From Antedon mediterranea (lineage: Eukaryota; Animalia; Echinodermata): a stretch of DNA of 64,000 nucleotides. Shown one piece after another: positions 16,843 to 56,200 of this stretch (positions are counted from its first letter, which is position 1; each line of letters begins with the position of its first letter). The position numbers were made by a program, and so were the translations under genes. The stretch covers positions 24,301,648 through 24,365,647 of the forward strand of contig NC_092673.1 of NCBI RefSeq assembly GCF_964355755.1, in the 5' to 3' direction. The notes beneath the pieces were generated by a model. It was not told the origin of the DNA. It was given only the letters and a program-made list of their open reading frames with translations, and searched no databases.

Positions 16843-18076
16843 GTCTCTGTGTTGCATCCTAGTGTGAACCAAGCTTTAAACAAATATACAGAGAGGGAAT
16901 TTTACTTTTATGTATTTATTTATTTTTTAGTTTTAATGCTTGTAATATTTATTGAATTATCTTATAATAATCTAATAATTATACCATATAATTATTATTA
17001 TTCTTTGTTTATAGAAAAATAATAATACTGCTACGACATACTGTACAGTCTGTAATATTTTGTCTTGCTATTAAAACTTCAAAACTAGTGCTAGTTGATA
17101 TTTTTTACAAAGTGATGTCAGTAAGTTTGTAAATTCAACGTTCTGTAGAATAAATTAATTTGTCACTGAATATTAGTTAACAAACTGGGCTAAACTGGAA
17201 GTGTTACCCTCTCTAAAAAAAATAGATTTTGTACAACTAGTACAACTTGATGAAAAAAAAAGTGCATAGTCATATACAGTACATGGTTTCTTAGTCTGGA
17301 CGGAATGAATTTAAACTCGTCACCCACCTCAGCCTCACATATAATCTATATATAAATTTACGTAAGGGCAAAATTCGGTAAATCGCGCCTTACTTCTAGA
17401 ATTTTCACTCGATGGTATGTAAAGTTGGTTCGTACTTTCGGTACTGATTTTAACCGCCTGATGTAACCCTGTTTGCTAATTAAATTGAGTTAAATAATTA
17501 GTTATTGACGATTAAAACGAATTTAGGTTAAACGATTTGCCCCAAATAGGGGTGTTTTCCGATCGTGGTATACACTGTCTAATGGATGTCCATCTTAAAA
17601 AAATACCCGCCAAAAAAATGCGAGGAGGCTTCGCATTTTTCTATCTCCTCCTATCCTCGATAATTGTTTTTAATAGCTGAAAACCGGTTGAACAGCTAGA
17701 GTACACCATCATAATGTTGAAGACAGGCCGATTTTCTTTAAAAAATACTATTTTGATAGATTTAATATACGATTATACAAATGTATTGATTTGCGATGAA
17801 TGGAACATCCCAATCTCTCAGTCTGCCAGAGTTTGGTTTAACACAAGTACTGTAGGTAAATTTATGAGCCCTTGAACACATACGGTAGGTAAATATATGG
17901 GCCCTTTGAGAATAAACTTGCAATACTTTGACAATACTGTAAATACCTATTAACTATTTTTCATTTGAATCGAACATTTCTTACTGTGAATGTTCGTACT
18001 GTTAGATGTAATATAAAAATATATACAAATAAACTTTATTACTGAGACTGTGGATAGGCTCTACTGTTAGATATAC

Positions 18077-18245
18077 TGTAATATGGTGGCGCTAGACCCC
18101 AATTTGCATACACACCTGAGTGGTGGCGTGCTAGGTATTACTGTATATAAAGGACGTGTTGTTTTGCCATTAAACACTTGTACTTATCGTAACTTACATG
18201 GTTGTCTCTCTGTCTCATTTCTTTCGTTTAACACCAGACTTTACA
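18077..18245 (+). repeat. 5' LTR
   Basis: TGTAA...TTACA; octamer ATTTGCAT 18102-18109, TATATAAA 18144-18151, ATTAAA 18169-18174; identical to the 3' LTR by eye. Confidence 0.97.
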
Positions 18246-18277
18246 TGGTGTCAGAAGTGGGATTCGAACCCACGCCT
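18246..18277 (+). promoter_or_regulatory. Primer-binding site complementary to tRNA-Leu 3' end (extended, >=32 nt)
   Basis: TGGTGTCAGAAGTGGGATTCGAACCCACGCCT is the reverse complement of AGGCGTGGGTTCGAATCCCACTTCTGACA-CCA, the T-arm, acceptor stem and CCA of metazoan tRNA-Leu (CAA/CAG type). Confidence 0.9.
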
Positions 18278-18278
18278 A

Positions 18279-18737
18279 CAATCGACAAATACGAAAGTTT
18301 TCTGAAGGTTCTAATTGCTCAAGAAATTTCTTGAAAATAGTAGCTGGCTCCTTTCGCTGCTCTTCCGTTAATGTCCATGTATTATATCTGCGAAGACCTT
18401 CTTCGCCTACGGCAAGAAGTATCAAAGGGACTTGTCGATCTATTGTATATATCTCGTGTCAACAATGACTGAACACGTTCCACGTTTTGATTGGAGCTCG
18501 CCAAATGCGGCAGATTCGTTTAAGTTATTTCAACAACGTGTTGAATTATATTTCCAAGTCAAAGGTACAGACGCAGATCGACAAGTCCCTTTGATACTTC
18601 TTGCCGTAGGCGAAGAAGGTCTTCGCAGATATAATACATGGACATTAACGGAAGAGCAGCGAAAGGAGCCAGCTACTATTTTCAAGAAATTTCTTGAGCA
18701 ATTAGAACCTTCAGAAAACTTTCGTATTTGTCGATTG
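18279..18737. repeat. Perfect 163-bp inverted repeat: leader 18279-18441 is the reverse complement of gag 18575-18737
   Basis: Base-by-base comparison from CAATCGACAAATACG to GGGACTTGTCGATCT showed no mismatch; the 133-nt spacer contains the ATG at 18465. Confidence 0.95.
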
Positions 18738-21700
18738 AAGCTAAGGAAATACACACAAAAACAAGGGGAGTCGTTGGATGAGTTTATTAACCGATGCAAA
18801 TTGCTTGCTCTGAAATGTGATTTTAACGATAGTGAATTGAATGAGCGATTGATAGAGCAGATAATTGCTAGTACTCCCATACCGGAATTACAGAAAGATC
18901 TAATGAACAAACCAAAAGGATTTAATGTTCAAGACGCGCTCAAACTTGGTCGGAGTTACGAAGCCTCCGCCGCCCATATAAGTGAACTACAATCTATGCA
19001 TGGGCAAGGACAAATCGCTAACGTTTCATCACTATTCTACCAACAACAAAAATGTAGGAATTGTGGCACAGATCACCGTTTAGACCGTCAGGACTGTCCT
19101 GCTCGTGATGACGTATGTAGAGCATGTGGTAAGAATGGCCATTGGGCTAAGTTTTGTCTAACCAGTAAATTTAAAGATCATCGTAGTCGACCAAAATATA
19201 GAACTAATTATGCTCAAAACCACCAACGTTACCGACGGGGTCAATCCCCAAGACAACGGGGTAGATACCAACGCAACCGCCCTTATGGATATGATAGAAA
19301 TGTACATTATTTGGAACAGTCTGAACAGACGCATACTGATGATAACGATACTGATTGCATGAATACGCAATTTGAATCATTTTCTTTCTCCTCTATACAA
19401 GTATCCAGTTTCTGTTTCCAAGACGGACCGAAACCCCGAGACGAAGCTTTCGCAAATCTCAAAGTAAAACTTGACGGCAGACCAGGCACGCATAACTTAC
19501 AATTAAAAGTTGATACTGGCGCACAAGCAAACACGCTCCCACTTAGAACATACCGTCACATGTTCCCGTACAATTTGAATACAAAAGGCTACCCACAACC
19601 AAATGCATTGGAAGCCACGCAGAACGTTTTGACGGCTTACAACGATACAAAAATAAAATGTTTTGGTACAACAAGAATACATTGCTGTTACGAGAACTCT
19701 ACATGGTTGAGTACCACATTTTTTGTTGTTGATGTTCCAGGCCCAGCTGTAATCGGTCTTCCAACATGCGAACAACTCCGCATTGTAACACTGCACTGTA
19801 ATATCAACAACACACCAACCAAATACAATCCCGTAGTTAATAACATCGAAGAACTTATTAAACTTTACCCTGACCAGTTTGATCGTATTGGTGAATTCAA
19901 AACGATACACAAGCTTGTTGTTGATCCTAACGTTCCCAGTCGAATGAATGCACCGAGACGTACACCTATTGCTTTAAAGGAAATGATAAAGGCTGAACTT
20001 TCAAAGATGGAGCAGTTAAATATCATAAAGCCAATTGAAGAGCCAACAGAGTGGGTAAGCTCACTAACGTATGTGACAAAAACAGATGGTAGCATTCGTG
20101 TTTGTTTGGACCCTAAATATTTAAACATGGCACTTGTCCGTCCGCAACACAGAATTCCGACACTTGAAGAAATAAATCATAGATTCGCCAACGCAAAGTT
20201 TTTTTCCAAACTCGATGCCAAAGCTGGTTATTGGTCAGTAAAGTTAGATCACGACAGCCAGAAACTTACCACTTTCCAAACACCCTTTGGACGCTATTGC
20301 TTCCAGCGTTTGCCTTTCGGATTGTCTGTGAGCCAGGATATATTTCAGCTTGAGATGGATCGAATCATTGGAAAATGCAAAGGTGTTTGTGGAATTGCAG
20401 ACGACATAGCAGTATTTGGTTCCACTGAACAAGAACATGATGCTAACCTGATTAACTTCATGAAAGTTGCAGAACAAACCGGCCTCGTTTTAAACTCGAC
20501 CAAATGTCACATCAAACAAGATAATATAACATTCTTTGGTAACGTTTATACCAATAAGGGAATTAAACCAGACCCCAAGAAAGTTCAAGACTTAAGAGCT
20601 ATGCCTGAGCCTACAAACAAAACAGAACTTCAACAATTTCTTGGAACTATGACTTACCTCTCGTGTTTCATTAAAGACTTCAGCACGAAAACAACAGTGT
20701 TGAGAGATCTACTTAAGAAGGACGTTGAGTTCCTTTGGGAAACACATCATGCAAAAGCATTTGAAGCTTTAAAACGCGAAGTTTCCGAAACAACGTTACT
20801 ACAATATTATGATGTAAACAAACCTGTCATCCTTCAATGCGACGCAAGCATACGTGGATTAGGGGCCACACTGTTACAATATGATTGTAACGATCAACTC
20901 AAACCAATTACTTATGCAAGTAAAAGCCTTACAGACACTGAACAACGTTATGCATGTATCGAGCGAGAACTATTATCCATTGTATTTGGAGTACAACGAT
21001 TTCACACCTTTTTATTTGGACGAAGTTTCCACGTTATTACGGATCATAAGCCATTGATAATGATAACAAATAAACCACTAACATCTGCACCTCCTAGATT
21101 ACAACGGATGCTGATCAAATTACAAGGATATAATTTTACTATTGAACATTTACCAGGAGTCAAAAATCAACTTGCCGATGGCTTATCACGTTTGCCTAAT
21201 ATGAATAATAATCAAATCATTGATTTGGATGTGCGTGTTGATCTTGTTCGTTTCTCCACAGAAAAAGTAACTCAACTTCAACAACAAACCACCGAAGACC
21301 CAATCCTAAACCAACTTAAAGGCATCATCACCAATGGTTGGCCGGAAAACATCAAACAGTTACCGACAGATATGCGACCATATTGGAGTTACAGAGACGA
21401 GATGTCAACCGACAACGGCCTTGTGCTTAAAGCTCAACGCATCGTAATACCCTCAACTATGCAACGTGATATACTGCTACAATTACATACCGCCCACCTT
21501 GGTCAAGAAAAAACAAAACTACTTGCTAAGGACACTGTATTTTGGCCGAACATCAATAAAGACATTGACCAATTAGTTCAATCATGCTCTATATGTCAAC
21601 AGCACCAACCATCACAAATGTCCGAGCCTCTCCTGCAACATGACATACCAACTAAACCATGGAGCGTACTTGGAGCTGATTTGTTTACGTTCGACGATCA

Positions 21701-22553
21701 TCAATGGCTAATTATATCGGACTATTACTCGAAGTATCCGATCATTCGCAAACTACCTGAATCTAGTCCAAGCAGAGTCGTCATCGATGTTTTCAAGCAA
21801 GTATTCGGCGAACATGGCGTTCCATCTAAAGTTGTAAGCGATAATGGCCCGCATTTTTCCAGTTTCGTGTTCAAAGAATTTGCTAAAGCCTGGAGTTTCG
21901 ATCATACAACTTCTTCACCCAGACGACCCCAAGGTAATGGGTACATCGAACGTCAAATACGGACGGTAAAATCAATATTAAAGAAAGCTAAACAATCGTC
22001 AACCGATTATGAACTTGCACTTCTTCATTGGAGATCTACACCAGTTAGTCAATCTCTTCCCAGTCCAGCTCAATTATTAATGGGAAGAAAATTGAAATGC
22101 AGTCTACCAACAAAGATAAGCCTAACCAACACCAATGACTCTGACAAAATATACGACGAATTGAAGAAAAGGCAAGAAGTTCAAAAGCATTATTATGACT
22201 TGCATGCTCGTACAAATGAACTAACCCCATTAATTCCAGGTCAACAGGTCAGAATCCAGAACCAGAGTTCTAAATGCTGGGATCCTGCCACTATACATCG
22301 GATAGCTGACGAACCAAGATCATTCTTCGTACAGAGTCCTAATGGTAAAATCACCAGACGAAATCGACAACACATCCGAGAAATACCAGTCAGTACGCCT
22401 GTACTACAAGAAACAACCGTACCTAACAAACCTCTCAACCCAGACCCACAGGATAAACCAGATGTGAGCAGAACTGAGATCGAACCAGAACAACCTATAA
22501 TTCGTACAAGGTCCGGACGGGAAGTGAAAATCCCTGATCGATATAAACCATGA
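18465..22553 (+). CDS. Gag-Pol polyprotein (Gag with two Cys/His knuckles, aspartic protease, RT, RNase H, integrase)
   Basis: CRNCGTDH...C and CRACGKNGHWAKFC knuckles; KVDTGA protease; LDAKAGYW / RLPFGL / IADD RT; CDAS / TDHKPL RNase H; H-H-C-C and ADLF / SDNG / ERQ integrase. The PR-RT-RH-IN order is Gypsy. First ATG at 18465 (the ORF track starts at TTG 18432). Confidence 0.97.
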   Translation: MTEHVPRFDWSSPNAADSFKLFQQRVELYFQVKGTDADRQVPLILLAVGEEGLRRYNTWTLTEEQRKEPATIFKKFLEQLEPSENFRICRLKLRKYTQKQGESLDEFINRCKLLALKCDFNDSELNERLIEQIIASTPIPELQKDLMNKPKGFNVQDALKLGRSYEASAAHISELQSMHGQGQIANVSSLFYQQQKCRNCGTDHRLDRQDCPARDDVCRACGKNGHWAKFCLTSKFKDHRSRPKYRTNYAQNHQRYRRGQSPRQRGRYQRNRPYGYDRNVHYLEQSEQTHTDDNDTDCMNTQFESFSFSSIQVSSFCFQDGPKPRDEAFANLKVKLDGRPGTHNLQLKVDTGAQANTLPLRTYRHMFPYNLNTKGYPQPNALEATQNVLTAYNDTKIKCFGTTRIHCCYENSTWLSTTFFVVDVPGPAVIGLPTCEQLRIVTLHCNINNTPTKYNPVVNNIEELIKLYPDQFDRIGEFKTIHKLVVDPNVPSRMNAPRRTPIALKEMIKAELSKMEQLNIIKPIEEPTEWVSSLTYVTKTDGSIRVCLDPKYLNMALVRPQHRIPTLEEINHRFANAKFFSKLDAKAGYWSVKLDHDSQKLTTFQTPFGRYCFQRLPFGLSVSQDIFQLEMDRIIGKCKGVCGIADDIAVFGSTEQEHDANLINFMKVAEQTGLVLNSTKCHIKQDNITFFGNVYTNKGIKPDPKKVQDLRAMPEPTNKTELQQFLGTMTYLSCFIKDFSTKTTVLRDLLKKDVEFLWETHHAKAFEALKREVSETTLLQYYDVNKPVILQCDASIRGLGATLLQYDCNDQLKPITYASKSLTDTEQRYACIERELLSIVFGVQRFHTFLFGRSFHVITDHKPLIMITNKPLTSAPPRLQRMLIKLQGYNFTIEHLPGVKNQLADGLSRLPNMNNNQIIDLDVRVDLVRFSTEKVTQLQQQTTEDPILNQLKGIITNGWPENIKQLPTDMRPYWSYRDEMSTDNGLVLKAQRIVIPSTMQRDILLQLHTAHLGQEKTKLLAKDTVFWPNINKDIDQLVQSCSICQQHQPSQMSEPLLQHDIPTKPWSVLGADLFTFDDHQWLIISDYYSKYPIIRKLPESSPSRVVIDVFKQVFGEHGVPSKVVSDNGPHFSSFVFKEFAKAWSFDHTTSSPRRPQGNGYIERQIRTVKSILKKAKQSSTDYELALLHWRSTPVSQSLPSPAQLLMGRKLKCSLPTKISLTNTNDSDKIYDELKKRQEVQKHYYDLHARTNELTPLIPGQQVRIQNQSSKCWDPATIHRIADEPRSFFVQSPNGKITRRNRQHIREIPVSTPVLQETTVPNKPLNPDPQDKPDVSRTEIEPEQPIIRTRSGREVKIPDRYKP

Positions 22554-22741
22554 TACGAACTACGAATACCTCAAAATTGTAACGATATTGCGAACATTTA
22601 TAACTTAATTTTTTTTTTTTTTTGACTGTATGATATTTTGCTAGTATGTTGTTTCAAGTTTGCTGTGAAGGGGATGTTGTTATATATTCTAAATGTTTAT
22701 ATTCTAAAAAATCTAAAAAAAAACTTTCTATTTTTGTCGAT

Positions 22742-22749
22742 AAGGGGGA
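22742..22749 (+). promoter_or_regulatory. Polypurine tract
   Basis: AAGGGGGA immediately before the 3' LTR. Confidence 0.85.
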
Positions 22750-22918
22750 TGTAATATGGTGGCGCTAGACCCCAATTTGCATACACACCTGAGTGGTGGC
22801 GTGCTAGGTATTACTGTATATAAAGGACGTGTTGTTTTGCCATTAAACACTTGTACTTATCGTAACTTACATGGTTGTCTCTCTGTCTCATTTCTTTCGT
22901 TTAACACCAGACTTTACA
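22750..22918 (+). repeat. 3' LTR
   Basis: Identical to 18077-18245; followed by ATAC. Confidence 0.97.
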
Positions 22919-25350
22919 ATACAAATAAACTTTATACTGACAGTTCCTTCTCAACGTTTGTATTAATTAATAATTACCAAAAATATAAACGTCGTAGTGG
23001 TGTATCGTGACATGTACTTTAATATTTCAATCGATTATGACAGTGACAGTTTTAACAAAGTATTAAATCGCAAATGTTTTAGGCCTACTGTATTTAGAGG
23101 TATATTATTTATAGGCCTATAAAACATGAACAAAATATTTCGTTACTCAGTGGATAAAGAATATATTTAAAAATTGTTCCTCTTTGTACCTATCCGCTTT
23201 CCCATCCCTCAACCCTAATGTTACATAGCGAGGAGGCTTCGCATTTTCCTATCTCCTCCTACGATAATTGTTTTTAATAGCTGAAAACCGGTTGAACAGC
23301 TAGAGTACACCATCATAATGTTGAAGACAGGCCGATTTTCTTTAAAAAAATACTATTTTGATAGATTGCTAGAGTACACCATCATAATGTTGAAGACAGG
23401 CCGATTTTCTTTAAAAAATACTATTTTGATAGATTTAATATACGATTATACAAATGTATTGATTTGCGATGAATGGAACATCCCAATCTCTCAGTCTGCC
23501 AGAGTTTGGTTTAACACAAGTACTGTAGGTAAATTTATGAGCCCTTGGTTTAACACATACGGTAGGTAAATATATGGGCCCTTTGAGAATAAACTTGCAA
23601 TAGGTTCGGAAAATGTTAAAAACCAATTTCTATTATTTGAATCGGTAAACAGTTTCCATTTATTATACATTGATAATGAAACATGAAATATTCCTATTTA
23701 TGTCCCTCGAGGTTCATTACAATTTATATTTAGTAGTCCCACGGACTTCATCTTAGCCACTCCCCCGAGTGCTAAGGCCAAATTTATGATACCCTACTTT
23801 CTATGTAAGTTTAGTTACAGTTAGTTCTTGACGATAATACAACGAATTTAGGTTACACCCTTCGGCCGCGAAAACGTTTCTGTACAAATATGATACCGAT
23901 TGGCTTTATTTCATTCAACAGCGACCATAATCTCGCCAATTACAGGATAGATAAACTATTTTATTATTGATGTGCTTATAAATTAAGACTCATGTAAACA
24001 GCTTGATTACATCATTTTACAGACAAACGAAACTTTTTTAAACCTACTGTTTCAATAACTGAGTATAATACTGTATACGTTTTCATAAGTAAGTGCATAT
24101 ACATTTTCGTGTTTTCATTGACGAGATTGTAATAGTAACTTCAGTAACTATTACAGTACTTATTTATTATACGACACAAGACAATTGTATCTGACAGGTA
24201 CGTACATTATTCTAAAAAATAAGTCTAGATAGATCCCTTAGGCGTCATAAATCACAGGCCAACAAATCAGTACTCATGACAGAAATTCGACCCAGTTTGG
24301 TTCACACAAATGTTTACAGGAATTTCAACACCACAACCGATGATTTGCCCTAAATATTTAGGTAGACTACAGTTTAATTTTTCACTGAATAGGAGCTTGC
24401 ATTTCCGATTTTCATTTCGCAGAATGTCTAGGTCTATTTATTTAGTTTGGTTCTTATAATATATAAATACAATCAACTTTATTACTGCGGTTCCATCACC
24501 ACCACCACGTGTCGCCCAATTCCCGTACATACATTTCCATTTCTCCCTAATTTCTTTAATCCACATAAATTAATTGTCCTTTATGGAATCCAGTATTGGT
24601 TTTGTTGTCTCTATTTCTGAATACCCCAATTAGGGGGACACTTCCGTTTTTGTTTAGTGTCCCAAAAAAGTCCCCGTCCGTGGATTCTACTGTATTCGAG
24701 AACCATCTGTGAGCACCCCTAGATGGTACGCGAGCGAAGCGAGCGTGCCATCTAGTAAGACACAATTACCACTACACAAATTGACTTTATATTGTGTATT
24801 GTATGTTCATTTATGTTGTACCAAATGCATATTACACTCAATATATAGTATATAATATGTTATGCAAATACTATGGTAGCGAAATTAAGCCTACTCCATT
24901 ATATTAAATTTGCTACTCTTGGTAATATCATGTTTCATATAATTCAACATGGCTCAAAGAATTTTTTTTGTATTGATAACAATGCTGAAATTATTAAATA
25001 TATTATGGAATATAAATATAGCCCTAAAAAGTAAATTAAAAGATTTGCATTTTATTGGTAACCAAAAATAAAAATCAGAGGAAAAGCAAAGAGGTTTTAA
25101 GTGTTGTTAGTAGTACTTCAATTGCTATGCAGCTGCCTTCATTATGACTGGCTGCTAAGGGAAGAAACAATACAGTCATAGCAGAGCGTGTTCTTATTAG
25201 CAGAAGCAATAAACGAGCACAGTGAAAGTTGGCCTTGATGTAGTACATGGTGGTACAGTATTTCTATTCATTTCATTAAAAGCAAGATAGACACTAAAGG
25301 ATATTAGAACCATGCTTGTTAGTTGATTTATCTATTTTTGTTGGGGAAAA

Positions 25351-27145: not shown

Positions 27146-29489
27146 TTAAATTATATTGATAACATTTTTTAACCATTTGAGACCATGCATGTGGTTGTCC
27201 AGTTCACTCTACTCTCCCTACTCCATCAGAGTAAATAATTTATTCAGTATCTTGGCAAATACTATGATACAGTACACATTTTCAAGTTTAATAGCGTAAA
27301 TACAGTGTATTTTACAGTACATATATCCATCTATATAGAAATTTGTCAAATTACAAAAGGACAAATCTGTTGATGCAAGGTAGGATTTCTACTCTTGAGA
27401 ATGAATCCTTTGAGTTACAATAGAAACAATTGTAGTCTAATGAGTAAAAATGATCATTAGTACAAAAGGACTATTACACTCATTTAAACGTCAAGACAGA
27501 TATTTGTTACCATAATGATAAAACTATAATTCTATGCATAATGTCCAATTTGTCTTGTCTAACACAGAGGAAAGGGATTAGGTATTAGTTTCTATTGAAT
27601 AAATTAATTATATTTTGTATAAATTAAATATAAAGGCAGGCCTACTTTTGTATATTGTTCATACTCGACACTATTTCGTTTTTCTTTAAATTATGAAATG
27701 TGAATTTTGCTTTAGTTGTGTAACAAAATACATTTTATATCTATGTTTAAATTGAAACTTATATAGTATTATTTTAATGATTTTAAAAGAATGAAATGCT
27801 AAAAACAGTAGAAATATTTTTTGAATTAAAATTAGTACACCTTTTCAGTCTAATACTTAAATTGCCAGAACAAATCCATCATTATGAAGTAAATCCGACA
27901 AGCCTCGTTACAACTTGCAGATGTCATGAAAAATAATGGGAAAACGCAAGAAAAAGTACCTTTGCAATCTTCCTTTGGCGATAAGACTAATTTAGCCATT
28001 CATGAGGTACTAGTTTAATTTAAAAGATTACTTAAATATTTGATGTTGAAGATCCAAGAAGCATAATGTAAATAGGTTATAGTTGACAATCCTATATCTT
28101 GTATTGACTAATATATCGTCTAACATATAAATATCAATATTGTTTGACCAGCTGTACTGTTTATACATTAACGACCACATACTATAAACAATGTCCTCAG
28201 TTTCCAGTTAAACTTAAGGACCAGTAATAATACATTTAACATTTATTATTAACACACTATAGCTATATGAACTCTCTATGTTGATAACTCGCTGTACGTG
28301 TACGTACTAAGGCTGGTGTAATTTATGCAATTCGTAATGTAATTCGTAATGTAATTCATAGATTAAAATTCCAAAATGTTCATTATCGTCTTAATGTATG
28401 AATATAAATATTGTTTGATCAGCTGTATTGTACATTAATCACCACATAGTATAAACAATATTAACACACTTGGTAACCAGCTATGATACAGTCTATTTTC
28501 CATTTTATAACTCTTAGGTTACGTCCTCACGTACAGTCGTAAAGGTAATCAACAGATTAAAATGCCAAGATGTTCACACAAACATCATTCGTTATAATTA
28601 TCACAGAAATCAGAATACCTATTTTTGTTTACACGTGATAGATGATGGCCATCTCTTTTTTTTTTAATGGGGCCATTCCTTGAAATACAACCATCTTATT
28701 TAACTTCAATTCTTTCCTAAACGTTAGCTCCAAAATGATCTCTGTTTTGATTATAAAAACTTAGAAGGGACATATTACCAAAATAAAAAATATTTGTGCA
28801 TAATGATAATGTCCTTAATTAAAATTGGTTCAAGGATTTTGATATTATTAAGAAGTTTTCTAATGTACTGCAGTAATTGTTCTATCAAGGCCTTATTTCA
28901 ATTTTTATAAAATGAACTTAGAATTTAATTGACTATTTTTATAGTGCCCAATCAAATGTAATAGGAAATTTTATAGCTTTCTATTAGAGAGATTAGGGAT
29001 AATTTCAGCAACATATTGTGTATTGAAACTAGCACTATTTATGATTCCATTTTTTATAAAAATCGATTGTAGCAAAACAACAAACATCATTTTAGTAACT
29101 ATGATTGAAATATATATTTATACTGGGTATCTCACTGTACCTAGCTTTTGTTGGTATATTAAAATTCAAATGTATTTACTTCAACAAAGTACACATTGTT
29201 GAATATACAAAAGTACATGTAAACAATAAAATATATGGAAAATACAAATATTTTAAATATTACAAAGATTTAAAGTACTATCAAATGTTTTTTATTAAAG
29301 CACAGTGCTTTACTTTATAGAAGCTTAATAATTATATGAAGATATGTAAATATCGTATGTTTGTAGAGTTTGACAAAGCCAAACTTGTCATAAATTTGTA
29401 AGTCTTGCAATAAACTTATAAATCTAAATGAAACTTGCAATATACTTGTAAGTCTAGATTTAAACTCATCACCTGGGACGTCTTGTTGC

Positions 29490-29557
29490 AATAATAATAA
29501 TAATAATAATAATAAGATTTTTAAAGCGCACATACCACTCCAGAGTGCTCAAGGCGC
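29490..29557 (-). mobile_element. L2-type 3' tail with (TTA)n
   Basis: Minus strand GCGCCTTGAGCAC...GTGCGCTTTAAAAAATC(TTA)n; similar tail on the + strand at ~49963-50027. Confidence 0.6.
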
Positions 29558-30125: not shown

Positions 30126-30453
30126 GTTGAAATGAAACTCTGCAATTATCTCAATGGAATGTAGAGATGTAAGATTGTCAATTACCCACCTATTATTCAT
30201 TGTTTGTGTTTTCAAATAAATTGCAAATTGTGTTTGTGTGTAAATATTAAGGAAGTACATCCATTTTATTATGAATCGATGCTGTTGTATTTTTGATAAT
30301 TAAATAGAACTCTTAATTAAAAATTGAATTTGACCTTGGTAACTAAGTTCATCACATCTCTTGAAAAAAAATTATTAAATTACTTATGAAATTAAAGTTG
30401 ATTATTGCCAACAGTAGAAAATATTACAATAAAAAATGTCTTAGTTCCATATT

Positions 30454-43800: not shown

Positions 43801-44205
43801 GGAATAAGAGTAGTTCAGTTTGAGCTCATATCATGCATATTGTGTTCTTTGTAAAGTTATGTATTTTTTTAAACTTGAAGAAATATTATTATTAGAGAGA
43901 CAGACCGACTTATTTTGGCCTCCTTCTGCACACTTTTGTTCTTTATTATAAATGTTATATGCCTGCAGAGAAACAATAAAAACAAACTTCAATGGTGTAC
44001 TTCCATTTTTCTGTCCCGCATACATGTCTGTTCTTAAAAAAACGTTTTTCCATAAAGTACAATTGGTGTATTATTATCTAAACATTTTTAAATTATAAAG
44101 ATATTAGTTACTGAATTGCTTTTATCTATTGATATCTTACAAATTCAATTCAATTATTTTATTCTGTCAATTCTTTCAATTTATTTACACTTTTATATCT
44201 TACAG

Positions 44206-44285
44206 AGTGCGTGTAGAATTCTTCGTAAATGAACAGTCATTTAAGGAACGATTACATCTTTATTTTATAAAAAACCAACGATCAA
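44206..44285 (+). CDS. KCNT1: KCNT exon, 80 nt ([26 protein letters not shown])
   Basis: tacag|A GTG CGT ... TCA A|gtaag. Confidence 0.95.
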
Positions 44286-47200
44286 GTAAGTTGAATGTAT
44301 TACTTATTATCTATAATCCTAAGTGGTTAATGACATACAAAAACTTGCCTTTATTATTCTGAGTCTGTTGATGTGTGACATAATATATTTATTTTATTAA
44401 ATCCTGCAAAATATCAAGCCTAAAGCTGTCTACACTCAATCTATTGACAAAAAAGTATAATGTGCCCAAATTTGGTAGTTATATACCCAAATATGGTAGT
44501 ATGACGTCCATTGGGTACATCACAAAGTTTGATAAGTGTATAAAGAGAGCTTAAGATTCAGAGAATACTCTTTTTGTTAACAGATAATAATATTATTTAA
44601 TTTAGATGGCATTTTAACTAGTACAGTAGTAGTAGTAGTTATTTTTATGTAAATTTTGACCATTTTTTTAAAAATGATATTTTCTATGTCATTTGTATGT
44701 ATATTTTTATCTCTCTATCTCCATCTTGGCGGTAATCTTGAAATTCAAATTAATTATAGAATGATATATTATATACATTACTAATGTTAACTTTTTTTAT
44801 ATTATTGCTGTATTTCTTTGAATTCATATTTATGATGGAAATCGGAATTATATTTTATCATTTAAATTGCTTCTGACGTGTTGTCATAGATACCTTAACT
44901 TTCATTTAAACATGTTTCTGAAGAGTTGAATTTCATCTTAACGTCATACATCTGGGTATGATAAAATATAAGATAAGCCACTGAATTGTATACGTTTATA
45001 AATTGACTGAAAGCAGGCATGTCATGTATCTGTGTTTCTATTGTATAAGATACATGATGCTAATTGAGTAAGTATATGGGTTTATAACATATAAGGTTTC
45101 AGATTTGAATTCCACATACATTTCGCTAAAATTACATTTTTAGGTTATTTTTTTTGTATCTTTGTGGTAAATTTAGAATTTCTTTAAATTGTGTTCATCC
45201 TGCCTTTTTATGTTATCCATTCATTGTATGTGCAAACACAGAACAAATTTAAATTACTGATGGGCGAGCATACCATCTAGGTTGTGCCCAGATGGACGTT
45301 CTTGAATACACAGTAATTTCAGCATAAAAAACTGGAGATTTCAAATGTACATACCGCAGGACTATAATACATTAATTGTCGTTTACTGAAACGAATAAAT
45401 AGACACGATGATTTGTGCAGTCAACTAAAATTAGTACCCTTGGAATTACTTCCGAAAGAGAAACCAACGTTTGATTTTTGGACTCATTTTAAACAAACCC
45501 AATTTGTGTTTTGTATGTAACCTTAAGGTTGAGGCAATGTACAAAGAGAAACCATTTTTAAATATTCAGCAACTAAATATTAATTTTTGATTTAGGCCTA
45601 TAAATAATATACCACTAAATACAGTAAAACATTTGCGATTTAATACTCTGTTAAAACTGTCTCTGTCATAGTCGATTGAAATAGTAAAGTACATGTGATG
45701 ATACACCAGTACGACGTTTATTTTGTTGTATTATTAATTAATACAAACGTTGAGAAGCAACTGTCAGTAAATAGTTTATTTGTATATTATGTGTTCATAA
45801 TCTAACAGTAGGGCCGCCCACACTTAGTTTATTTGTATGTTTGTCTTCAACATTATGATTCTGTACTTGATTGAGCTGTTAAACTGGTTTTCAGCCATTA
45901 AAAACAATTATCGTAGAAGGAGATAGGAAAATGTGAAGCATCCTTGTATTATTGTGTGCGGGTATTTTTCAAGATGGACATCCATTATACAGTTTATACA
46001 ATGATCGGAAAACACCCCTATTTACGGCAAATCGTTGAACCTAAATTCGTTTTAATTGTCAATAACTAATTATCAAACTCAATTTAATTAGTAAACAGGG
46101 TTTTCAGGTGGTTAAAATCAGTATCGAAAGTACGAACCAACTTTATAATACCATCAAGTAAACACTCTAGAAATAACGCGCGATTTACCGAATTTTGCCC
46201 TTGCGTAAATTTATATATAGATGGTTATAAAAACCAGAGTTAACATGGTTTGATATTGTATTACCCATTTAGAGCTTTAGTACTAATGTCACTAATCAAT
46301 CAAAGTCCATTAAATCCATCCAATAACAAGTCTATTTTTTTCACTTTCCTTTCTTTATAATTATTTCATGTTCTTTTGATGTTCAAAGACTCTCTTTCAG
46401 CCCCACATTTTTGTATTTAATGAAAATACTGTAGTTTGTTTGGAGACCTAATTATCAATTTATTCTACTTGATTAAGTCAATGCCTACTGGGAATTACTT
46501 AAAGATGTGGTCAACTAGCTAGTGAATATATAATTAGCTAATGATGAGAGGCCTATGACATTAAATTCATGATGAAAACAACATGAAAACTAGACAATTG
46601 AATTATGCTATTAGTTGTTGGCATAAACCAAATGTGCTCTACCACATGGTTAATACTGTCTATCACCAGAGATGGATTTAGAAGGAGTGTATTAGCAACA
46701 AGGTGTTCAGGGCCAGTTTTTCTGGCATAGCAACATATAAGATGTTTATTTCAAATTTAATTTTGAGATATAATTTAGTTATTAAAAATGTTTTCCTGTT
46801 TTATTTCCAAAAAAAAGTGATGAATTTATTCACATTCACAATTTTTTCGCAGCAGAAACATGCCCGTAATGACAAAACTGAGCAAAAACTCTGTTAATTA
46901 ATTATACCCTTTCATCAAAAATATTTATACTGGTTTCCTTAACAACAATGATAAAATCCAAATTTATCATTTTTCTTAAATAACTGGTTTGGTTTTATAA
47001 AAAGCCTTTTTTTTATGCAATCAAGTCAAGTTGCGCTTTAACTCTTTTATTAGTGCAAGTCTCATCAAGGTGGCATTCGGTTACTATAGAAACTTAATAA
47101 TATTCTTCTTACCTAGAACCTTAAGGAGTTTTTTTTTAATCTAGGAAATGAAAAATTTAGCTGTCTTATTATTAAACAAGAAGACAATTGCGATGATATT

Positions 47201-50200
47201 TAAAGGAAATAAAATTAGATGAAAATGCACTACTTATTAAGGGAGATCTTTTGTTAAACTTCACTTTAATTATCCACACATGGTGCTATGTTGATTAATT
47301 AATGCATACGCTTTTTAACATATAACAAAAGAAATGTACTTTCATGTCCTTTCACTTTCATCTCAACATTATGGAAACTTTAAAATTCAATAATACTGCA
47401 TCTCATGTGTATCACATGTGATGCCTGTATCACAGGAGGTTAGGTTTAAGGGTTTGGATATTAACATGTTTATTACGGAATTTGCTGAATTTACTGGTTA
47501 CTGTAAACGTTTTACACCTTCTGTTTGTTTTTTTTTCTCGTATGATAATTTGCTAGAGCGCTGTATTGTTTGCAGTTTATTTTTTTATTACATTTAATAA
47601 CAATTTCTATTGATTTAAAAAAAAATTGATTTTTTTTCCTACAGCTCTTCGAATACGTTTAGTAAACTGTGTCTTTAAGCTACTTACAGTTATCTTATAT
47701 TTGATTCGTGCGTCAACTGATCAGGATCCAAAAGCGGTCAAATGGTAACTTTATAATTTGTTTTTAATACAATTTATTTCTTTATCTTATTGATTAATAA
47801 AAAAAAAAACATCCATTAAAATTATAAACTAATGGCAGTCATCTTGTTGATTGTGACATCATTGATGAAAGGAGGGTAAAGGCCAATTTTTACAGATTTG
47901 CGGTAACACTAAGCGGAAAACAAACAAATATCTGTTACAGGTATTTCTTATGTACCGTTTACACACAACACCGTTTACGCGAGACAATAAATTGTTTTTC
48001 CGCTTACCGTTTATACCGCTCGTCTGTGTAAATTGGCCATAATTGCGACATGTGATGGTGGCAGCATATTTTTTTTATTTCTTTATTCGAATTCACAAAA
48101 ACACAACATATAAAAACAAAGAATGAATTCAGGGTAACACAAAAAAGTAACCAAAGGTCTAACTTATTTCCATTGTGGCCTTAAGGATAAATGAGTAGTG
48201 ACAATGCGGACTTTGTGATAATGATAAATTTAGGAACAATGTTGGAGTTGTCAAGGTTGTCACCGAGAGGTGACAATAATGGGAGTGGTACATATTGATA
48301 TGCAAATTTCCAGAATTTATTTTCATTTATTATTGCAAGCTTAAACAAACATTTAAATTTTTATTTTTTAGTTTTGGTTTAGAACATCCACACAACACTT
48401 GGTAAGTTAAGAACGAGTATGGTTTATTTTTTAAACTAAATTCATATTTTTTAAGAAAAGAATGTAACCATACATAACTTATGTTAATTTTTATGGAGTA
48501 GCCAACCTGCTTGCCTTGTAAATGAAAGGTAAAAAGTTTTTAGAATAAATATTCAAAACGTATTCCGTCAGTCCAAATTTAGAAACATGTCCTGTATAAT
48601 TTGTTTTTCTATTAATTCAACAAATAAAACAGGAGATTATAGATGCAAGATTTTAGATGCACAACTTAAATTCATCAATTTAAATGTAGTAATGCTAAAC
48701 ATCTGTTGCATAAACAGATATAATAATATTTTAACATAAAAAAATGAATATTTAACATTTTTAAATGTTTTTTCTTCGATAGTACGCCAGGAGAAGCAGA
48801 TTGCATTTATTGGTAAGTTATTATATTGCTAATAAGCAGATAATGATAATTGAAAATCAATAGAATTATCTACATATTTGTTGTCATGCAATAGTGATTA
48901 AATATCACTATATATAAATATATAAATCCAAAGGCAAATTACTGAAAAAATGACAATGCTATGGGTATCAGTGGCTGGATCTCAATGGAGATACAAAAAT
49001 AAAAAGCTAAATCAAAACGATAAAGTAAACAGCCAGAAAAGTTAGCAGAGCTTTCGGGCAACACTAGCCCTTCATCAGTGCAAGGGATAAATATATATAT
49101 ATATATAAACACAACAGGCACAGAACATGCATTCTAAACAGCCCGGTGATATACTGAAATTGAATTAAATAATTTTAAACGATAAAGATGAGGAAACTAT
49201 ATAAATATATATCTATAATTATCTCGTCACAACATTCCTGCTGAAATAATTAGAAAATGAACGTGATTGATTTTACTGAAGTTTTTCAAGTGAAAGGCTA
49301 ATAGTTGCATATGTAATAGTCCATTGTTTATTACACATAGAGGATTTAACGGCTCCAAAGAACAATTATTTACTCAATAATTCACTCTAAATATTCGTAC
49401 CACTTTGTTTAATTACATGAACTCCAAAATAGTAGACTGTTGCTATGGAGATTGGTTTGTTTATTACCTGTCTAAATCGTTATTGTTGCTATTAATGGTT
49501 GCTATGTAAAACCATGGTTAACCCATGCCTAACAAACATGCCATTTATCGTTGAACGTAATTATCGACTAAGCAGTATTATGTGCAACATTTCAAATCAA
49601 TGTGTGACAGTTTTATATCAAAGTGTATGCAATTTTATATCCAGTATTGTTATTGCTAATAAGAGCTAAAGTTCCAGACCAGTTAATTACATCAACAAAT
49701 AATCTGAATTTGAGCAGTCTAATGTTTTTATTGTCTAAATGCATATCTTCTACAGTATTTACAACACATGCAAAAGTCATATTTATGATCGGTTATTTAC
49801 AACACCTAAAATGCATATATATTTCTTGTGGCCAATGCTATTAGTTCCTTAAGGCTAGGACATCCACATTTATGGTGGAACCGTGTGGAATTCCCTACCT
49901 ATTTCACCAAGTTCAAACAAGCTTTTCATTATTTTAAATTATTGCCATCATCTATTTTAATTTATGTACAGCGCATTGAGAGCTTGCTTAGATGCGCTAT
50001 ATAAGAATGAACTATTATTATTATTACAATTTGTCCATCAAATCCGCTTATCCCGATGTTGCATACAAAATCCCATGGGCTCATCCTGGTGGGATTCCAC
50101 TGCTTCCGGATCGATCTGGATCCAGATCTCTTTTTTATGGGGATATATTATCAATCTTGCTCAACACTAGGTTCAAATTCTACAAATTCCACGTATGTCC

Positions 50201-53200
50201 ATGCAATGGACACTTTATTATTGTTGACTATAATTCTATGTAGAAGAAAAACATAGCATCAACCTGCATACGTCATTGCATGCATCTCAGAAATTGCTCC
50301 AATAATTATTAGTAAAAATTAATAAAATATTTTATTCTACTTTTATTGACCGTTTTGTATAAGTTTATACATGAGACTTGTAATCAATTCATTTTTATTA
50401 TTATTGACAAGTTATTGTAAGTTTTAAAAAAAATATGATAGAATATTTATTTTCTACTGTAATATTATTTGTTTGTATATTGTATTAAACCATCATTCCA
50501 CACATTATTATTATTAAATATTATATTGTTGTTATACTATTACTGTTGTTGGTCCGTAGAGGGCCTAATCTGAATTTCCTCCATTTCCAGTAAAGCTTAA
50601 GGATGATAATTACTACAGGCCTTGTCTTTTAAAGCAAGCGAGTGCTTTTAACATTTACAACATGCTTAAATTTGGTAAACTTCTACAAACCAAAATACAA
50701 ACAGCACACCTACATCATCCCTGAATGTATTGAGGAGTGCAGTTTGTACCACACCTATAATTTTCAAAAGTCAAGGCCTGTTACTACATTTACCTTTTAC
50801 CTTATAATCATCCTTCAACATTTGTTGTTTTTCACAAGGCCATTTTACATAAAAAAACATTGATGTACAAAAACAATTAATCTTTAGTAACAAAAAACAG
50901 AAGTATTTTCTATTTTGATTGATTACATATCTTTTAATAAACGAGTATATGCCATGTAACCAAAGATACAACATGCATTTAATATAACCATCATTGTTAT
51001 TTTCATCCTCGTATTATTGTAAGCAAGTAAATTGTGTTTTTTTTTACAATGCGCGCATTACATAAAAACATTGATGTAAAAAAAAACAACCTTTCGTAAC
51101 AAAAACAGATAATTTAATGATCTGTCAAATTGGATTGAAAAATTGCTCCACAAAAACCGGTTTAAAGAAATGTCTACACTATCAAACTTTATGTGACAAC
51201 AAATTTGATGTGCCTATATAGGGACATGATGATGTCATATCACTACCATATTTGGAAATATCACTACCATATTTGGGCACATCACACTTCTAGTTTGATA
51301 GTATAGACAGCTAGCTTAAGAACTGTTCTTAGAAATCAAACTGGAATCGAATGAAACATTGTTTACGATTGGTTGTTTTTGTTGGTTTTGTCTGTACCCA
51401 TTTGTGCTGGCAAGAAAGCGTTCTTAAAAAGAACTCTTTTTTAAAACCGTGTTCTTCTGATCAATAGAGATGAGCCCAAAGTGTAAGCTCCCGTCTACCT
51501 ACAACTGTCTCCATTTTAGTATAATAAAAGAGGTTACACCACACTTTTTAGGCCTAGATGTGTTGAAATTGAGCATATATTATATGTTAATGATCTGTAT
51601 ATAATTCTTTACATTAAACCATGGTTTAACGTAAATAATTATTTACAGGTAGTATTTTGTTTGTTTTTCTAGGCCGGCAATTTTATGTGTTGATCGGAAA
51701 GACTGGATGTTTGGATTGCAGTGTGCCTTTGCATTAATTAACTTATTCCAAGTGCTTCTTCTTCTATTTTTAAATTATAAGGTGATTTATTGAATAGTTA
51801 TAGCCAATGAATTATTTGCTGTAATTCAATTCCACAGTCATCATGTTGCAATTTATAATGTTCCATTAAACTGCTGACACTGCACTCAATGCATGTACAT
51901 AAATACACATTCACCTTGTCAAATGCATACCAATCCAAAATGTCTGTCTAATTTCGTCTAGAGTTAATTTTTTTCATTTTTGTAGGGAAATATTTTACAA
52001 CAAATAATGAGCATCAGTATGGTACTGGAAGCGGTTACTACAATACCTTTTGTAATCACAGTAAGTGCTACCAAGAATTATGAATACTCTTAAGGGGACA
52101 CTTTACAGGAAATGAACAATGGACAGTATATGTGTTTTGACACTGTGACCAACCCCTATTCAGGAGACATCCCTATTTAAGTGGACACTCTCACAGGAAA
52201 TGAACAAGGGGCAGTATATGTTTTTTGACACTGACCAACTATTCAAAAGACACCCTATTAATGGGTCACTATCTTGTGAAATATACGAGGGGCAACATGA
52301 TTTGATAAAGAGTGGCCCAGCAATATATATTGTTAACACTTGGCCAACCTCTATTGAAGAGGACATCCTATTTAAAAGACCTGGACCTTGGGATTTGAAA
52401 GGCAAGGCACAAAGCTACAACTCCATTTAATGAATTACAGCTTCTATTTTTCACATTAAAATATGTCGGTTCACATACATCCAATATTGTCCTTAAATTA
52501 TAATTGTAAATTTGATGTTATTTATAAAACTGGATAGATGAATATTCTAACTCTAATGTTGGCCTTATTCAAATACGGGTTCTTTCAATCTGGTTTGTAC
52601 GCGACATACATAATACTCAATTGTCAACATTAATAAACAGATGAATAACTCTGTATTACTTTGTATGCCCATAATATACATAAACATCTAATCCATTAAG
52701 TGTTACTTTCATTATTGCAAGAGATATATTCTCTGCTTTCTACAATACTATCTGTACAGTAATTGATGCATTGGACCTAATATGTAGGATTGAAACTTTG
52801 GCATTGTGAAAAAAAGATCATATTGGAGAAATCTTTTGGAGCCATTTATTTTATTTCATATTAGATACATCCTGTGTTAAATACAGTGATGTACAATTAT
52901 GATGAAATGTTGTCGTCATTACAAATCAAGTTGCTCTATAAAGCTCTGTCTATATTATCAAACTAGTTTAACAAAAAAAGTGTGATGTGCCCAAACATGG
53001 TAGTGATTTGCCCAAATATGGTAGTGATATGACATCATTATGCTCATATATGGGCACATCATATTTTTTTATCACATAAAGTGTAGACAAACCTTTAGAA
53101 ACTGGCTTTAATTCTGATCACTGCATGTGTAACTGCATTAATGACTCCTCTGTATAATTTCCTTTATAAGAAATGCAGCATAATTTGAAACGTATTATAA

Positions 53201-56200
53201 TCATACTGGTATTACATCTGCGTATCTATGATATTCAACTTCCTACTCTTTCTAAAAGAAATTCCAAACTATAGCTCAAATTTCTAATAGTAATTTAAAG
53301 TTTGCTTTATATAGCTTTGTAAAAAAAGTGTGTCCTCATTGGCCGTCAATTTGAGTACAGTAGAACCCGTTCAGGGGACACTTTTGGTACCCAATTAGCA
53401 TAGTGTTAACACATATGTTGTCCCTCATTCTTTACAAAGAAATTGCCTCTAGAAGTGTCACTGAATAAAAATGTCCCAAAGAAGGGACACTAGTGTAAAT
53501 GTCATATTGTATGTAGATGTCGACATACCAGAAAAGATCAACCAGATGAACTTTACTTTTAACATAAGTTTTTAATTATTTATTATTAAATTATATCTGT
53601 TCTTTTATCCACAGGTTGTATGGCCAGAGAGCCATGATCTTTTCGTGCCTGTTTTTTTAAATTGCTGGTTAGCTAAAGAACTTCTGGAAAACTTATTTGT
53701 AAGTTATTCACTTTAGTCCTGTTTCTGCTGTGAATAACCAGTTATTAACAGTGTGAATAAATTAACCCCAATTTGTTATCAGCAGAAACGGGAAACATTT
53801 TCAATAACCGGTTAAATGGCGGCCTGACAATAATGGTTAAAAAAACACCCAATCGATTCGGTGTTTGAACACAATTTAACTGGTGTTATCGATGTGCAAC
53901 TTTTCGCTGCAACGCAAATTAACAGTTGTTTTCAGATTGACCTTGAATTAACTACACTGTAGTAATGTTTGAATTGATCGCCAGATCTCATTACATTTAT
54001 TTCCTAAATAGATTCACTGTGTATTTATTTTCATTACTATCTGCAAAAATAATGGCTGCAAACATTTTTATATTCTCAAATTTGAAAAACGCTTAAAACA
54101 TAGAATAATTATATGTACATGAAAAGGATGCGTTTTGTTACTATGCTATTATTGAGAATCTGTACGTAAAAAAAAATAATCGGCAATTATTTTGAAATAA
54201 ATGACATACAGAAAAAATTTAAATTTAACAAGACTATATTCTAGTATAGTTTACAAAAATATTCTTTAATTGTTAATTCTAATTTCATTACAGAATGACC
54301 TTCATCGTGTAATGCAGCGCCCTCACTCGGCCTTATCACAACAAGTTTTTATCTTAATAGTTACAATTATGTGTTTGATAATCACATGGTAAGTATCAAT
54401 CATGTGATAAAGATTATTAGAAATTTAGATCATTTCTATGATGGAGATGTTTGTTTGAATTATGTAAGGCCTCACCGGTTCCATTAATTAGACTCGGTGA
54501 ACTAAAAGTTTTGAAATTAGCAGTATTGATTGTATTGTATCTTGAGAATTGAATGTATACATTACATGCGTTAACATCAAAGCTCTGTCTACTGCCTTGT
54601 TTATTATGACTGTCTGTATTCAGAACTCATACATCAAATTACAATACAATACAAAATGCACTTTGGAACATTATGGAATTCCATGGCTAACTTAATAACA
54701 TTTTTTGTTAATTTTAATGCCATTAAATAGTTATCCACAAATTGGATCGAAAAAATAGTCAAATTTGCTGCCAGCCAACAGGTTTTTGGTTTGATTTATT
54801 TTGTCATTTTATAAGGGAAACATTTTTTTGTATTTTTTTTCTACAAAAGTTATTTAATTGATTAAAAATACCAATTAACCTAAGTCTGATTTTATTAATC
54901 TTTTTTTTTTCCATTTATTCATTCATCCATTCATTCAATCTTTTATTTCGGAAACTCTGGTCTATAGAAAGTAAAAAATTACATATAAATGAAATAAAAT
55001 AAACACTAATTACTACTACTCATCTCAGGATGAAATTCCACCTGCATCTTCGACTTAACTAGGACGTTGCTTATAATGTTTGAAAAAAACAATTCTATAA
55101 CTTAATGTCCAGTCAAAACAGTATTTGATTTTTGAGATATGTTAGTAAATTGTTGTCTGGAAAACTATGCATTGATTTCTATTGCATTTCATTTTTTATT
55201 TAATTAAAATGTTGAAAACATTTCAGAAGCAAGAAATCACTTAGCTTGCGGCCGTGATAATAGTTTAGCAGTAAAATATAGTTGTCGCTTTCTATTAGAA
55301 CATGTAGCAGTATTACTTTGTATTGTCATAATGCCCTATGTATAAATGCAAAACCTTCTTTAAACCTAGATGCAGTATGTAAAGTTATGGCATGTTTGAT
55401 CTAGTTTCAACTATCTGTTAAAATTCATTAAGGATCAGTATTTCAATTATTCTCCACTGTATTATGAATAATTATTAACACACATTACTACTTGTTTTTT
55501 CTTGCAGTGCATGCGGTATTCATCATTTAGAGAGGGCAGGCTTGGAGATCACTGTATTCGAGGCTCTTTACTTCACCGTTGTGACCTTCTCTACAGTTGG
55601 GTATGGTGATATTAAAGTAGAAATTTGGCCATCGCAACTCTTTGTAATCTTAATGATAGCAGCTGCACTTGTTGTCCTACCAGTTCAGGTAAAATAACAC
55701 AATTTTAAGTTTTATTGTCAAAAACAACTGTATTTATATTAGGCTTTTAGAACTCGTAGCTTTTCTTTCTTTTCATCTCTACTGTTAATTAGCAAACTTA
55801 AAAAACCAGAACTAGACTCCAACTCGACAGTGACATAAGAGCATAGATTTTTTAGCAAATGAACAGAACTGAAAGAATCAATTGTTCAAGCACTTGTGTG
55901 TACAAATTAAACTGAGTGCAACTAATACAATTGTGTGTTACTTTGAGTTGCCAGTTGCATTCAGTTGCACATCAAACTAGTTTGATAAAAAAAGTGTGAT
56001 ATACCAATATATGGTAGTGATATCCCCAAATATGGTAGTGATATGCCCAAATATGGGCATAAACTTTCATAGTGTAGACAGAGCTTAAGCCTACATTTAT
56101 TTGCGAGAGGCAACATACATTCTAATTTGCTGACTACTCTGTTGCCATGCATAAAAACACAAGCACAAAACTTTTCAGTAATGTTGTTTTTACCAACAAC

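What the first reader, a model, noticed from the sequence alone, without database searches (positions are those of the whole stretch)
18279..18737. Retrotransposon leader is a perfect 163-bp antisense copy of its own gag: a built-in hairpin enclosing the start codon
Seen: 18279-18441 is the exact reverse complement of gag 18575-18737, starts immediately after the extended PBS, and leaves only 23 nt of other leader before the ATG (18465), which sits in the 133-nt loop. An LTR-driven RNA would form a 163-bp perfect duplex. Known: such duplexes are Dicer/ADAR substrates and block ribosome scanning; rearranged hairpin copies can silence a family in trans (as Mu killer does for maize MuDR). Inference: this copy could be a self-made endo-siRNA killer allele, or the family uses a cis-antisense switch to control translation versus packaging of its single ORF.
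Basis: partly seen in the sequence, partly recalled or inferred. Interest (0 to 1): 0.85.

Follow-up and report, generated by a model that had tools for sequence, protein, structure and literature searches.

The report
Retrotransposon copy with self-antisense leader hairpin
One young jumping-gene copy in a feather-star genome has most of its normal leader replaced by a backwards copy of its own gag gene, likely a one-off copying slip that is predicted to fold its RNA into a long hairpin, which would cripple this copy and could (untested) help silence its relatives.

Summary
It is not a family feature. Contigs of 4 public runs laid across the inner junction never show it (0 of 9 records); 3 of 4 runs carry the same different, ordinary leader joined straight to the ATG, and none of 15 leaders of more distant relatives is complementary to gag. 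The family translation/packaging switch is therefore rejected. The anatomy is a 1-4-3-2 template-switch replacement whose outer junction sits at the end of the tRNA-copied primer-binding tract, which points to a slip during reverse transcription; a host replication slip or an assembly chimera is not excluded, because no raw read across either junction was seen. The RNA is predicted to form a -303 kcal/mol duplex with two new upstream ATGs, so the copy is likely dead in cis. It is built like Mu killer, and may lie sense in a host channel-gene intron, but transcription, small RNAs and trans-silencing are untested.

The parts
18073..18076 (+). left copy of the 4-bp target-site duplication
   Evidence: flanks printed; same four bases follow the 3' LTR
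18077..18245 (+). 5' LTR, 169 bp, TG...CA, TATA-like box at 18144 and ATTAAA at 18169
   Evidence: 100% identical to 3' LTR; motif scan (consensus matches only)
18246..18280 (+). primer-binding site, extended: complements a tRNA 3' end through the whole T arm (at least 28 nt, probably about 35); tRNA-Leu by recall
   Evidence: T-stem 5/5 pairs, T-loop 4/4; Rfam T-arm match 18257-18274 minus, E 0.00023; 31 of 36 identical to the PBS region of L017
18279..18441 (-). arm 1: 163-bp antisense copy of gag that replaces the family leader; carries two out-of-frame upstream ATGs (18371, 18377; 33 and 31 codons, stop ending 18472)
   Evidence: family leader differs upstream of 18441
18442..18574 (+). 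133-nt loop: last 23 nt of the family leader, start codon 18465 and gag codons 1-36
18575..18737 (+). arm 2: gag codons 37-91, the template of arm 1
18465..22553 (+). single intact gag-pol ORF, 1362 aa: two CCHC-type knuckles (197, 218), protease DTG (350), RT, RNase H, integrase
22742..22749 (+). polypurine tract
   Evidence: sequence
22750..22918 (+). 3' LTR
22919..22922 (+). right copy of the target-site duplication
44204..59159 (+). host KCNT2-like (Slo2) potassium-channel exons for residues 33-416; the exon for residues 1-32 is not in the window, so the element may lie sense in intron 1 (inferred)
   Evidence: 12 exact peptide blocks against P0122, Antedon mediterranea; residues 1-32 score 48 at best against 172 self and up to 43 shuffled

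Best explanation
This is a rare, likely single-copy rearrangement of a young Ty3/gypsy retrotransposon in which the family leader is replaced by 163 bases of antisense gag, likely by a double template switch during reverse transcription, and its RNA is predicted to fold into a long duplex that would block translation of this copy. Shown: the inverted copy, the intact LTRs, ORF and target duplication, and that the common family form has a different leader up to base 18441. Inferred: polymerase left the template 24 nt upstream of the ATG, copied gag 18575-18737 in reverse (1 base of microhomology), and was rejoined at the end of the tRNA-copied tract (about 2-3 bases of microhomology), which is where plus-strand transfer happens; the cDNA then integrated normally. 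Whether the nascent minus strand folded back, or plus-strand strong-stop DNA mis-primed on a second RNA genome, cannot be told. Predicted: any transcript, from the LTR or from a host intron, makes a 163-bp duplex; with two new upstream ATGs and the loss of most of the leader (probable packaging signals) the copy is likely dead in cis. It could feed the dsRNA/siRNA pathway against sister copies, but no evidence here shows that it does.
For: Exact inverted copy. Ordinary leader in X1, X5 (organism A, two studies) and X6 (organism B): the same 30 letters precede 18441, loose parts 176, 92 and 30 letters; in 4 of 4 runs arm-1 sequence is seen only as gag; 0 of 9 records cross 18441|18442 in the window's form. 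The X1 and X5 records run unbroken from leader through ATG and both arm-2 ends. Arm matches family gag with 0 differences in X1 and X5. Switch-point order is the 1-4-3-2/3-2-1-4 type of PMC5453318 (passages). The outer junction falls at the end of the tRNA-like tract. LTRs identical, ORF open, arms identical, so the event is recent. Inversions are a known class of defective provirus, 6% in one HIV set (PMC6235535, passages). Stem energy -303.1 kcal/mol, arms unpaired probability 0.001, two upstream ATGs overlapping the gag ATG.
Against: No read or contig crossing either junction was seen, so an assembly or library chimera is open; the outer junction was not covered by laid data. Logan contigs are simplified graphs and drop rare variants (text; PMC12424806 passages), and it is unknown whether X1 is the source animal: its 0.92 word share fits equally with lacking this locus's flanks and junctions (0.915). 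The extended PBS may be a family trait (L017 has a degenerate one), so it is not a copy-specific footprint of read-through. A junction within a few bases of the PBS end is suggestive only; host replication switches give the same pattern. The family's sequence at the outer junction is unknown, so that microhomology is inferred.
Confidence: 0.5

Rival explanations
1. Same structure, but made after integration by a host replication or repair template switch (four-point type 1-4-3-2, or end-joining with a templated insertion); a neutral accident.
For: Type 1-4-3-2 is 31% of human-chimp events and needs no long homology (PMC5453318); such events create hairpin RNAs (10.1101/2023.04.19.537475, abstract); inner junction has only 1 base of microhomology.
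Against: The outer junction coincides with the end of the tRNA-like tract, a landmark only for reverse transcription; identical LTRs leave little time after insertion; 163 bp with jumps of 130-460 bp is long for the short-range events described (my reading; the length figure of that paper was not seen).
Confidence: 0.25
2. Assembly or library artefact: a chimeric read or amplification template switch inside a multi-copy repeat.
For: 0 of 9 records in 4 runs show the inner junction, including the best holder X1; arms are perfect; the flanks contain near-identical local duplications.
Against: It needs two switches that return to the original strand and land exactly at the PBS end, while LTRs, target duplication and ORF stay perfect; contigs drop rare variants, and X1 may not be the source animal.
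Confidence: 0.2
3. A family-wide cis-antisense switch between translation and packaging.
For: Only the anatomy of this one copy.
Against: Ordinary leader in 3 of 4 runs, two organisms; longest leader/gag complement 7-10 nt in 15 of 15 relatives tested against 163 here; a -303 kcal/mol duplex is not switchable. Caveat: short-read contigs would break at such a hairpin, which biases relatives against it.
Confidence: 0.03

Closest known systems
Mu killer (Muk) of maize MuDR
   Same: A rearranged transposon copy with part of itself in inverted orientation, predicted to give long dsRNA matching the 5' part of active copies (PMC1563492 passages).
   Different: Muk is a DNA-transposon derivative in a plant with shown hairpin transcript, small RNAs and heritable methylation; here an LTR retrotransposon in an echinoderm, ORF and LTRs intact, 163-bp stem, no activity shown.
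Antisense nested EVADE insertion in Arabidopsis rdr6
   Same: LTR retrotransposon copy whose arrangement could form a hairpin and was proposed as a silencing trigger, also untested as an siRNA source (PMC11624286 passages).
   Different: That is a whole element inserted into another; here a 163-bp internal templated replacement at the PBS.
Four-point template-switch mutation, type 1-4-3-2 / 3-2-1-4
   Same: A segment is replaced by a reverse-complement copy of nearby sequence, creating a perfect inverted repeat in one step (PMC5453318); source of new hairpin RNAs.
   Different: Described for chromosomal replication and short tracts; here 163 bp, inside a retroelement and anchored at the primer-binding site.
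Defective proviruses with inversions and strand-transfer errors
   Same: Inversions are a counted class of defective HIV proviruses (PMC6235535); tRNA read-through past A58/U54 spoils plus-strand transfer (PMC8599865); deletions from strand-transfer errors are in print (Pulsinelli and Temin 1991, title only in a reference list; details recalled).
   Different: Somatic retroviral dead ends; this one is in a genome assembly of an invertebrate and keeps an intact ORF.
Ty3/gypsy elements of the Mag group (SURL-like)
   Same: Single ORF, two CCHC knuckles, PR-RT-RH-IN order, short LTRs; named relatives are 'K02A2.6-like' proteins of sea urchin, sea star and molluscs; Mag C-clade includes echinoid SURL (PMC8220671).
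   Different: Best full-length relative is 58% identical; clade placement not tested with labelled references.

Membership tests
Ty3/gypsy LTR retrotransposon | paired LTRs TG...CA with 4-6 bp target duplication | tested here: met
   169-bp identical LTRs, 4-bp duplication
Ty3/gypsy LTR retrotransposon | PBS after 5' LTR and PPT before 3' LTR | tested here: met
Ty3/gypsy LTR retrotransposon | pol order PR-RT-RH-IN, no env | tested here: met
   Pfam RVT_1 538-692, RNase H 758-889, integrase 995-1155; DTG at 350; no further ORF of 150 aa or more before the 3' LTR
Mag clade / SURL | RT/RH phylogeny groups with Mag references | not tested
   no labelled reference sequences were obtained (SURL paper not held); resemblance is recalled plus names
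Mu-killer-type silencing allele | inverted duplication of element sequence able to form long dsRNA | tested here: met
   (prediction of fold)
Mu-killer-type silencing allele | rare derivative of a family whose other copies are normal and match the arm | tested here: met
   ordinary leader in 3 of 4 runs; arm identical to family gag in X1 and X5
Mu-killer-type silencing allele | hairpin is transcribed and processed to small RNAs | not testable with these tools
   no holder on record as RNA was listed; contigs cannot show it
Mu-killer-type silencing allele | dominant, heritable trans-silencing of active copies | not testable with these tools
   needs crosses or carrier/non-carrier expression data
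Family-wide cis-antisense leader switch | inversion present in most copies and conserved in relatives | tested here: not met
Four-point template switch 1-4-3-2 | ancestral segment replaced by exact reverse complement of nearby sequence, then return downstream | tested here: inconclusive
   inner junction and template fit; the family's sequence at the outer junction was not seen

The most novel reading that the evidence does not exclude
Reverse transcription itself occasionally mints 'killer' copies: a strand-transfer slip at the PBS puts antisense gag in the leader, and this copy, driven by its LTR or carried in the host channel-gene intron, produces dsRNA and siRNAs that silence its still-active family in an animal. 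It would be a natural Mu-killer counterpart for an LTR retrotransposon in a deuterostome, caught just after birth.
Probability: 0.1. Interest if true: 0.75.

Novelty: new variant of a known kind. Interest (0 to 1): 0.35.

Why it matters
How a host first recognises a new retrotransposon family is an open question; rare hairpin-forming copies are one proposed trigger, shown for a maize DNA transposon and only suggested for LTR elements. A young, rare hairpin copy with identical arms, in a family still shared at high identity among related animals, would be a clean natural test case if it is real and transcribed. If it is not expressed it is a neat but minor mutational fossil of reverse transcription.

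Tried and rejected
No whole genome is held, so copies could not be counted. No second family copy in the window. P0001 found nothing in viral contigs; a 36-base leader/ATG pattern found nothing in viral or prokaryote genome contigs; P0001 is not in the protein collection. No RNA holder listed (X5 is only guessed to be RNA): no evidence on expression either way. X9's record starts at 18476 and says nothing on the leader. No tRNA gene in the window or in 33 loci scanned, so the primer's identity (tRNA-Leu) is recalled, not tested. The idea that the extended PBS is a copy-specific footprint of tRNA read-through was weakened by L017 (14 of 18 identities beyond base 18, shuffle p 0.015), although 0 of 15 relatives keep an intact T arm. 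Of 22 loci examined for a leader, 7 were dropped (L001 no upstream DNA; L004, L006, L010, L015, L024 no plausible PBS; L023 duplicate of L022), and 4 of the 15 kept have doubtful PBS calls (L002, L005, L012, L016). No strong splice sites that would remove arm 1 by simple consensus. A bacterial promoter scan was irrelevant. Earlier findings of this scan: nothing. Literature searches returned no report of an LTR element with its leader replaced by antisense gag; subscription journals are not covered, and two older papers were not held.

Full report
Observation. The sequence is as described. 18279-18441 is the exact reverse complement of 18575-18737, 163 of 163 bases, and cannot be extended by a perfect pair at either end; the 133-nt loop holds ATG 18465, 23 nt after arm 1. 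The window has no N. The longest perfect inverted repeat in 57 related loci is 9-33 bp, so this is not chance.

The element. It spans 18077-22918: two identical 169-bp LTRs with TG...CA ends, a 4-bp target duplication, a polypurine tract and one open 1362-aa frame with two CCHC-type knuckles, protease, RT, RNase H and integrase in gypsy order. It is therefore very young. The best full-length relative among 132 hits is 58% identical; named hits are 'K02A2.6-like' proteins of echinoderms and molluscs. Mag/SURL affinity is recalled and supported only by these names and PMC8220671 (passages); no tree with labelled references was made. The PBS is longer than the usual 18 nt: it keeps the complement of a full tRNA T arm (5 of 5 stem pairs, 4 of 4 loop positions; Rfam T-arm match). 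That the primer is tRNA-Leu is recalled. The host is a crinoid: exons at 44204-59159 match an Antedon mediterranea KCNT2-like channel exactly over residues 33-416.

Is it a family feature? No. Thirteen public runs hold the stretch or part of it; I laid 4 of them (X1, X5 organism A, two studies; X6 organism B; X9 organism C), all contigs, on 18281-18574. In 4 of 4 runs arm-1 sequence appears only as gag (opposite-strand joint 18441 to 18574). None of the 9 listed records crosses 18441|18442 in the window's form. In 3 of 4 runs the same different sequence precedes 18441 (loose parts of 176, 92 and 30 letters); X9's record starts too far downstream to tell. The X1 and X5 records run unbroken from that leader through the ATG and both ends of arm 2, so the inverted form is at most a minority there. 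In X6 a variant at depth 37 beside 701 survived assembly while the junction did not appear. Among more distant relatives (31-59% protein identity for those used), the longest leader/gag complement is 7-10 nt in 15 of 15 leaders (7 of 22 candidates dropped and 4 PBS calls doubtful, see Tried and rejected). Short-read contigs would break at a long hairpin, which biases this second test, but the first test does not depend on it. The family switch is rejected.

Is it real? Not shown. Logan contigs are simplified graphs (PMC12424806, passages) and drop rare variants, so their silence does not prove an artefact; and X1 may not be the source animal, since its 0.92 word share is what one gets if this locus's flanks and junctions are absent (0.915). 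The outer junction was not covered by laid data. In favour of reality (inference): an artefact would need two switches that return to the original strand and land at the end of the PBS while leaving LTRs, target duplication and ORF perfect. I put artefact at 0.2.

How it arose. Against the family form, the copy is leader-replaced: leave at the PBS end, copy gag 18737 to 18575 in reverse, return at 18441-18442. This is the 1-4-3-2 order (mirror 3-2-1-4) of the four-point template-switch model (PMC5453318, passages). The inner junction shares one base with the family leader. At the outer junction the tRNA-like tract probably overlaps arm 1 by 2-3 bases, judged from relative L017 (31 of 36 identical); the family's own sequence there was not seen. 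The PBS end is where plus-strand strong-stop DNA is transferred (established retroviral biology; PMC8599865, passages, describes read-through past tRNA A58/U54 spoiling this transfer), and inversions are a counted class of defective provirus (6% in PMC6235535, passages). I therefore favour a slip in reverse transcription (0.5) over a host replication or repair switch after integration (0.25). Against over-reading: L017 shows that an extended PBS can be a family trait, so the extension here is not proof of read-through in this copy, although 0 of 15 relatives keep an intact T arm; and PMC5453318 argues that chromosomal events are inter-strand, so a fold-back route is not implied by the pattern.

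What it would do. With a start assumed about 28 nt after the TATA-like box at 18144, the stem begins about 105 nt from the cap; the 163-bp stem evaluates to -303.1 kcal/mol and both arms are paired with probability above 0.99. Arm 1 adds two out-of-frame ATGs in weak context whose frames end at 18472, across the gag start. Scanning to the gag ATG would be blocked (established knowledge, recalled), and most of the family leader, the usual site of packaging signals (recalled), is gone. The copy is likely dead in cis. The arms show no A-to-G differences, so there is no sign of a cycle through edited RNA. Arm sequence equals family gag with 0 differences in X1 and X5, so any siRNAs would match sister copies. 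A hairpin forms from either strand, and a second route to transcription exists: the exon for channel residues 1-32 is not in the window (best score 48 against 172 self and up to 43 for shuffles) and the first exon found has a canonical acceptor, so the element may lie sense in a long first intron; an alternative downstream promoter would undo this. No expression data were available.

Comparison with what is known. It is a Ty3/gypsy element by every feature tested. It is built like Mu killer (PMC1563492, passages) but transcription, small RNAs and trans-silencing, the defining features, are untested, so it is not filed as a killer allele. A hairpin-capable nested EVADE copy was proposed, untested, as a trigger in Arabidopsis (PMC11624286, passages); Sirevirus LTR palindromes are siRNA hotspots (PMC4728375, abstract); template switches create hairpin RNAs in primates (10.1101/2023.04.19.537475, abstract). 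Searches found no paper on an LTR element whose leader is replaced by antisense gag; the library lacks subscription journals. PMC3587641 and PMC9278108 were seen as passages only and add only background and one reference title. No supplements were read; the length distribution in the supplement of PMC5453318 bears on the host-switch rival.

Verdict. Observation confirmed; family switch rejected; most likely a rare template-switch accident giving a cis-crippled copy. New variant of a known kind, interest 0.35. The killer-copy reading has probability about 0.1 and would deserve 0.75.

Noticed in passing
window 44204-59159 (+): Twelve exon blocks of a KCNT2-like (Slo2) potassium channel, exact peptide matches to Antedon mediterranea P0122 residues 33-416; first coding exon absent from the window, implying an intron of over 44 kb.
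   Followed up: yes
window 18393 region as laid in run X6 (gag 18575-18737 equivalent): Organism B holds a gag variant with 25 bases missing (depth 159 of 606), a likely frameshifted subfamily.
   Followed up: no
window 17900-23100: The family is held at word shares 0.92-0.86 (organism A), about 0.53 (B) and 0.27 (C), so near-identical copies occur in several organisms; close host relatives or horizontal transfer not told apart.
   Followed up: partly
L017 338-375: A distant relative (39% protein identity) keeps a degenerate extended PBS, 31 of 36 identical to this element's: tRNA read-through tracts may become fixed in some families.
   Followed up: partly
window 17344-17972 and 22919-23644; copies at 37623-38827 and 45539-46222 (reverse): The retrotransposon is nested in a host non-coding repeat; 17620-17972 recurs just downstream of the element with a 69-bp tandem duplication.
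   Followed up: partly
window 2941-3867 and 32233-33134: A roughly 900-bp repeat in inverted orientation at 96-99% identity, 29 kb apart, probably a young non-autonomous element.
   Followed up: no
window 3-225, 4906-5607, 29380-30138: Minisatellites with 12-, 18- and 31-bp units.
   Followed up: no
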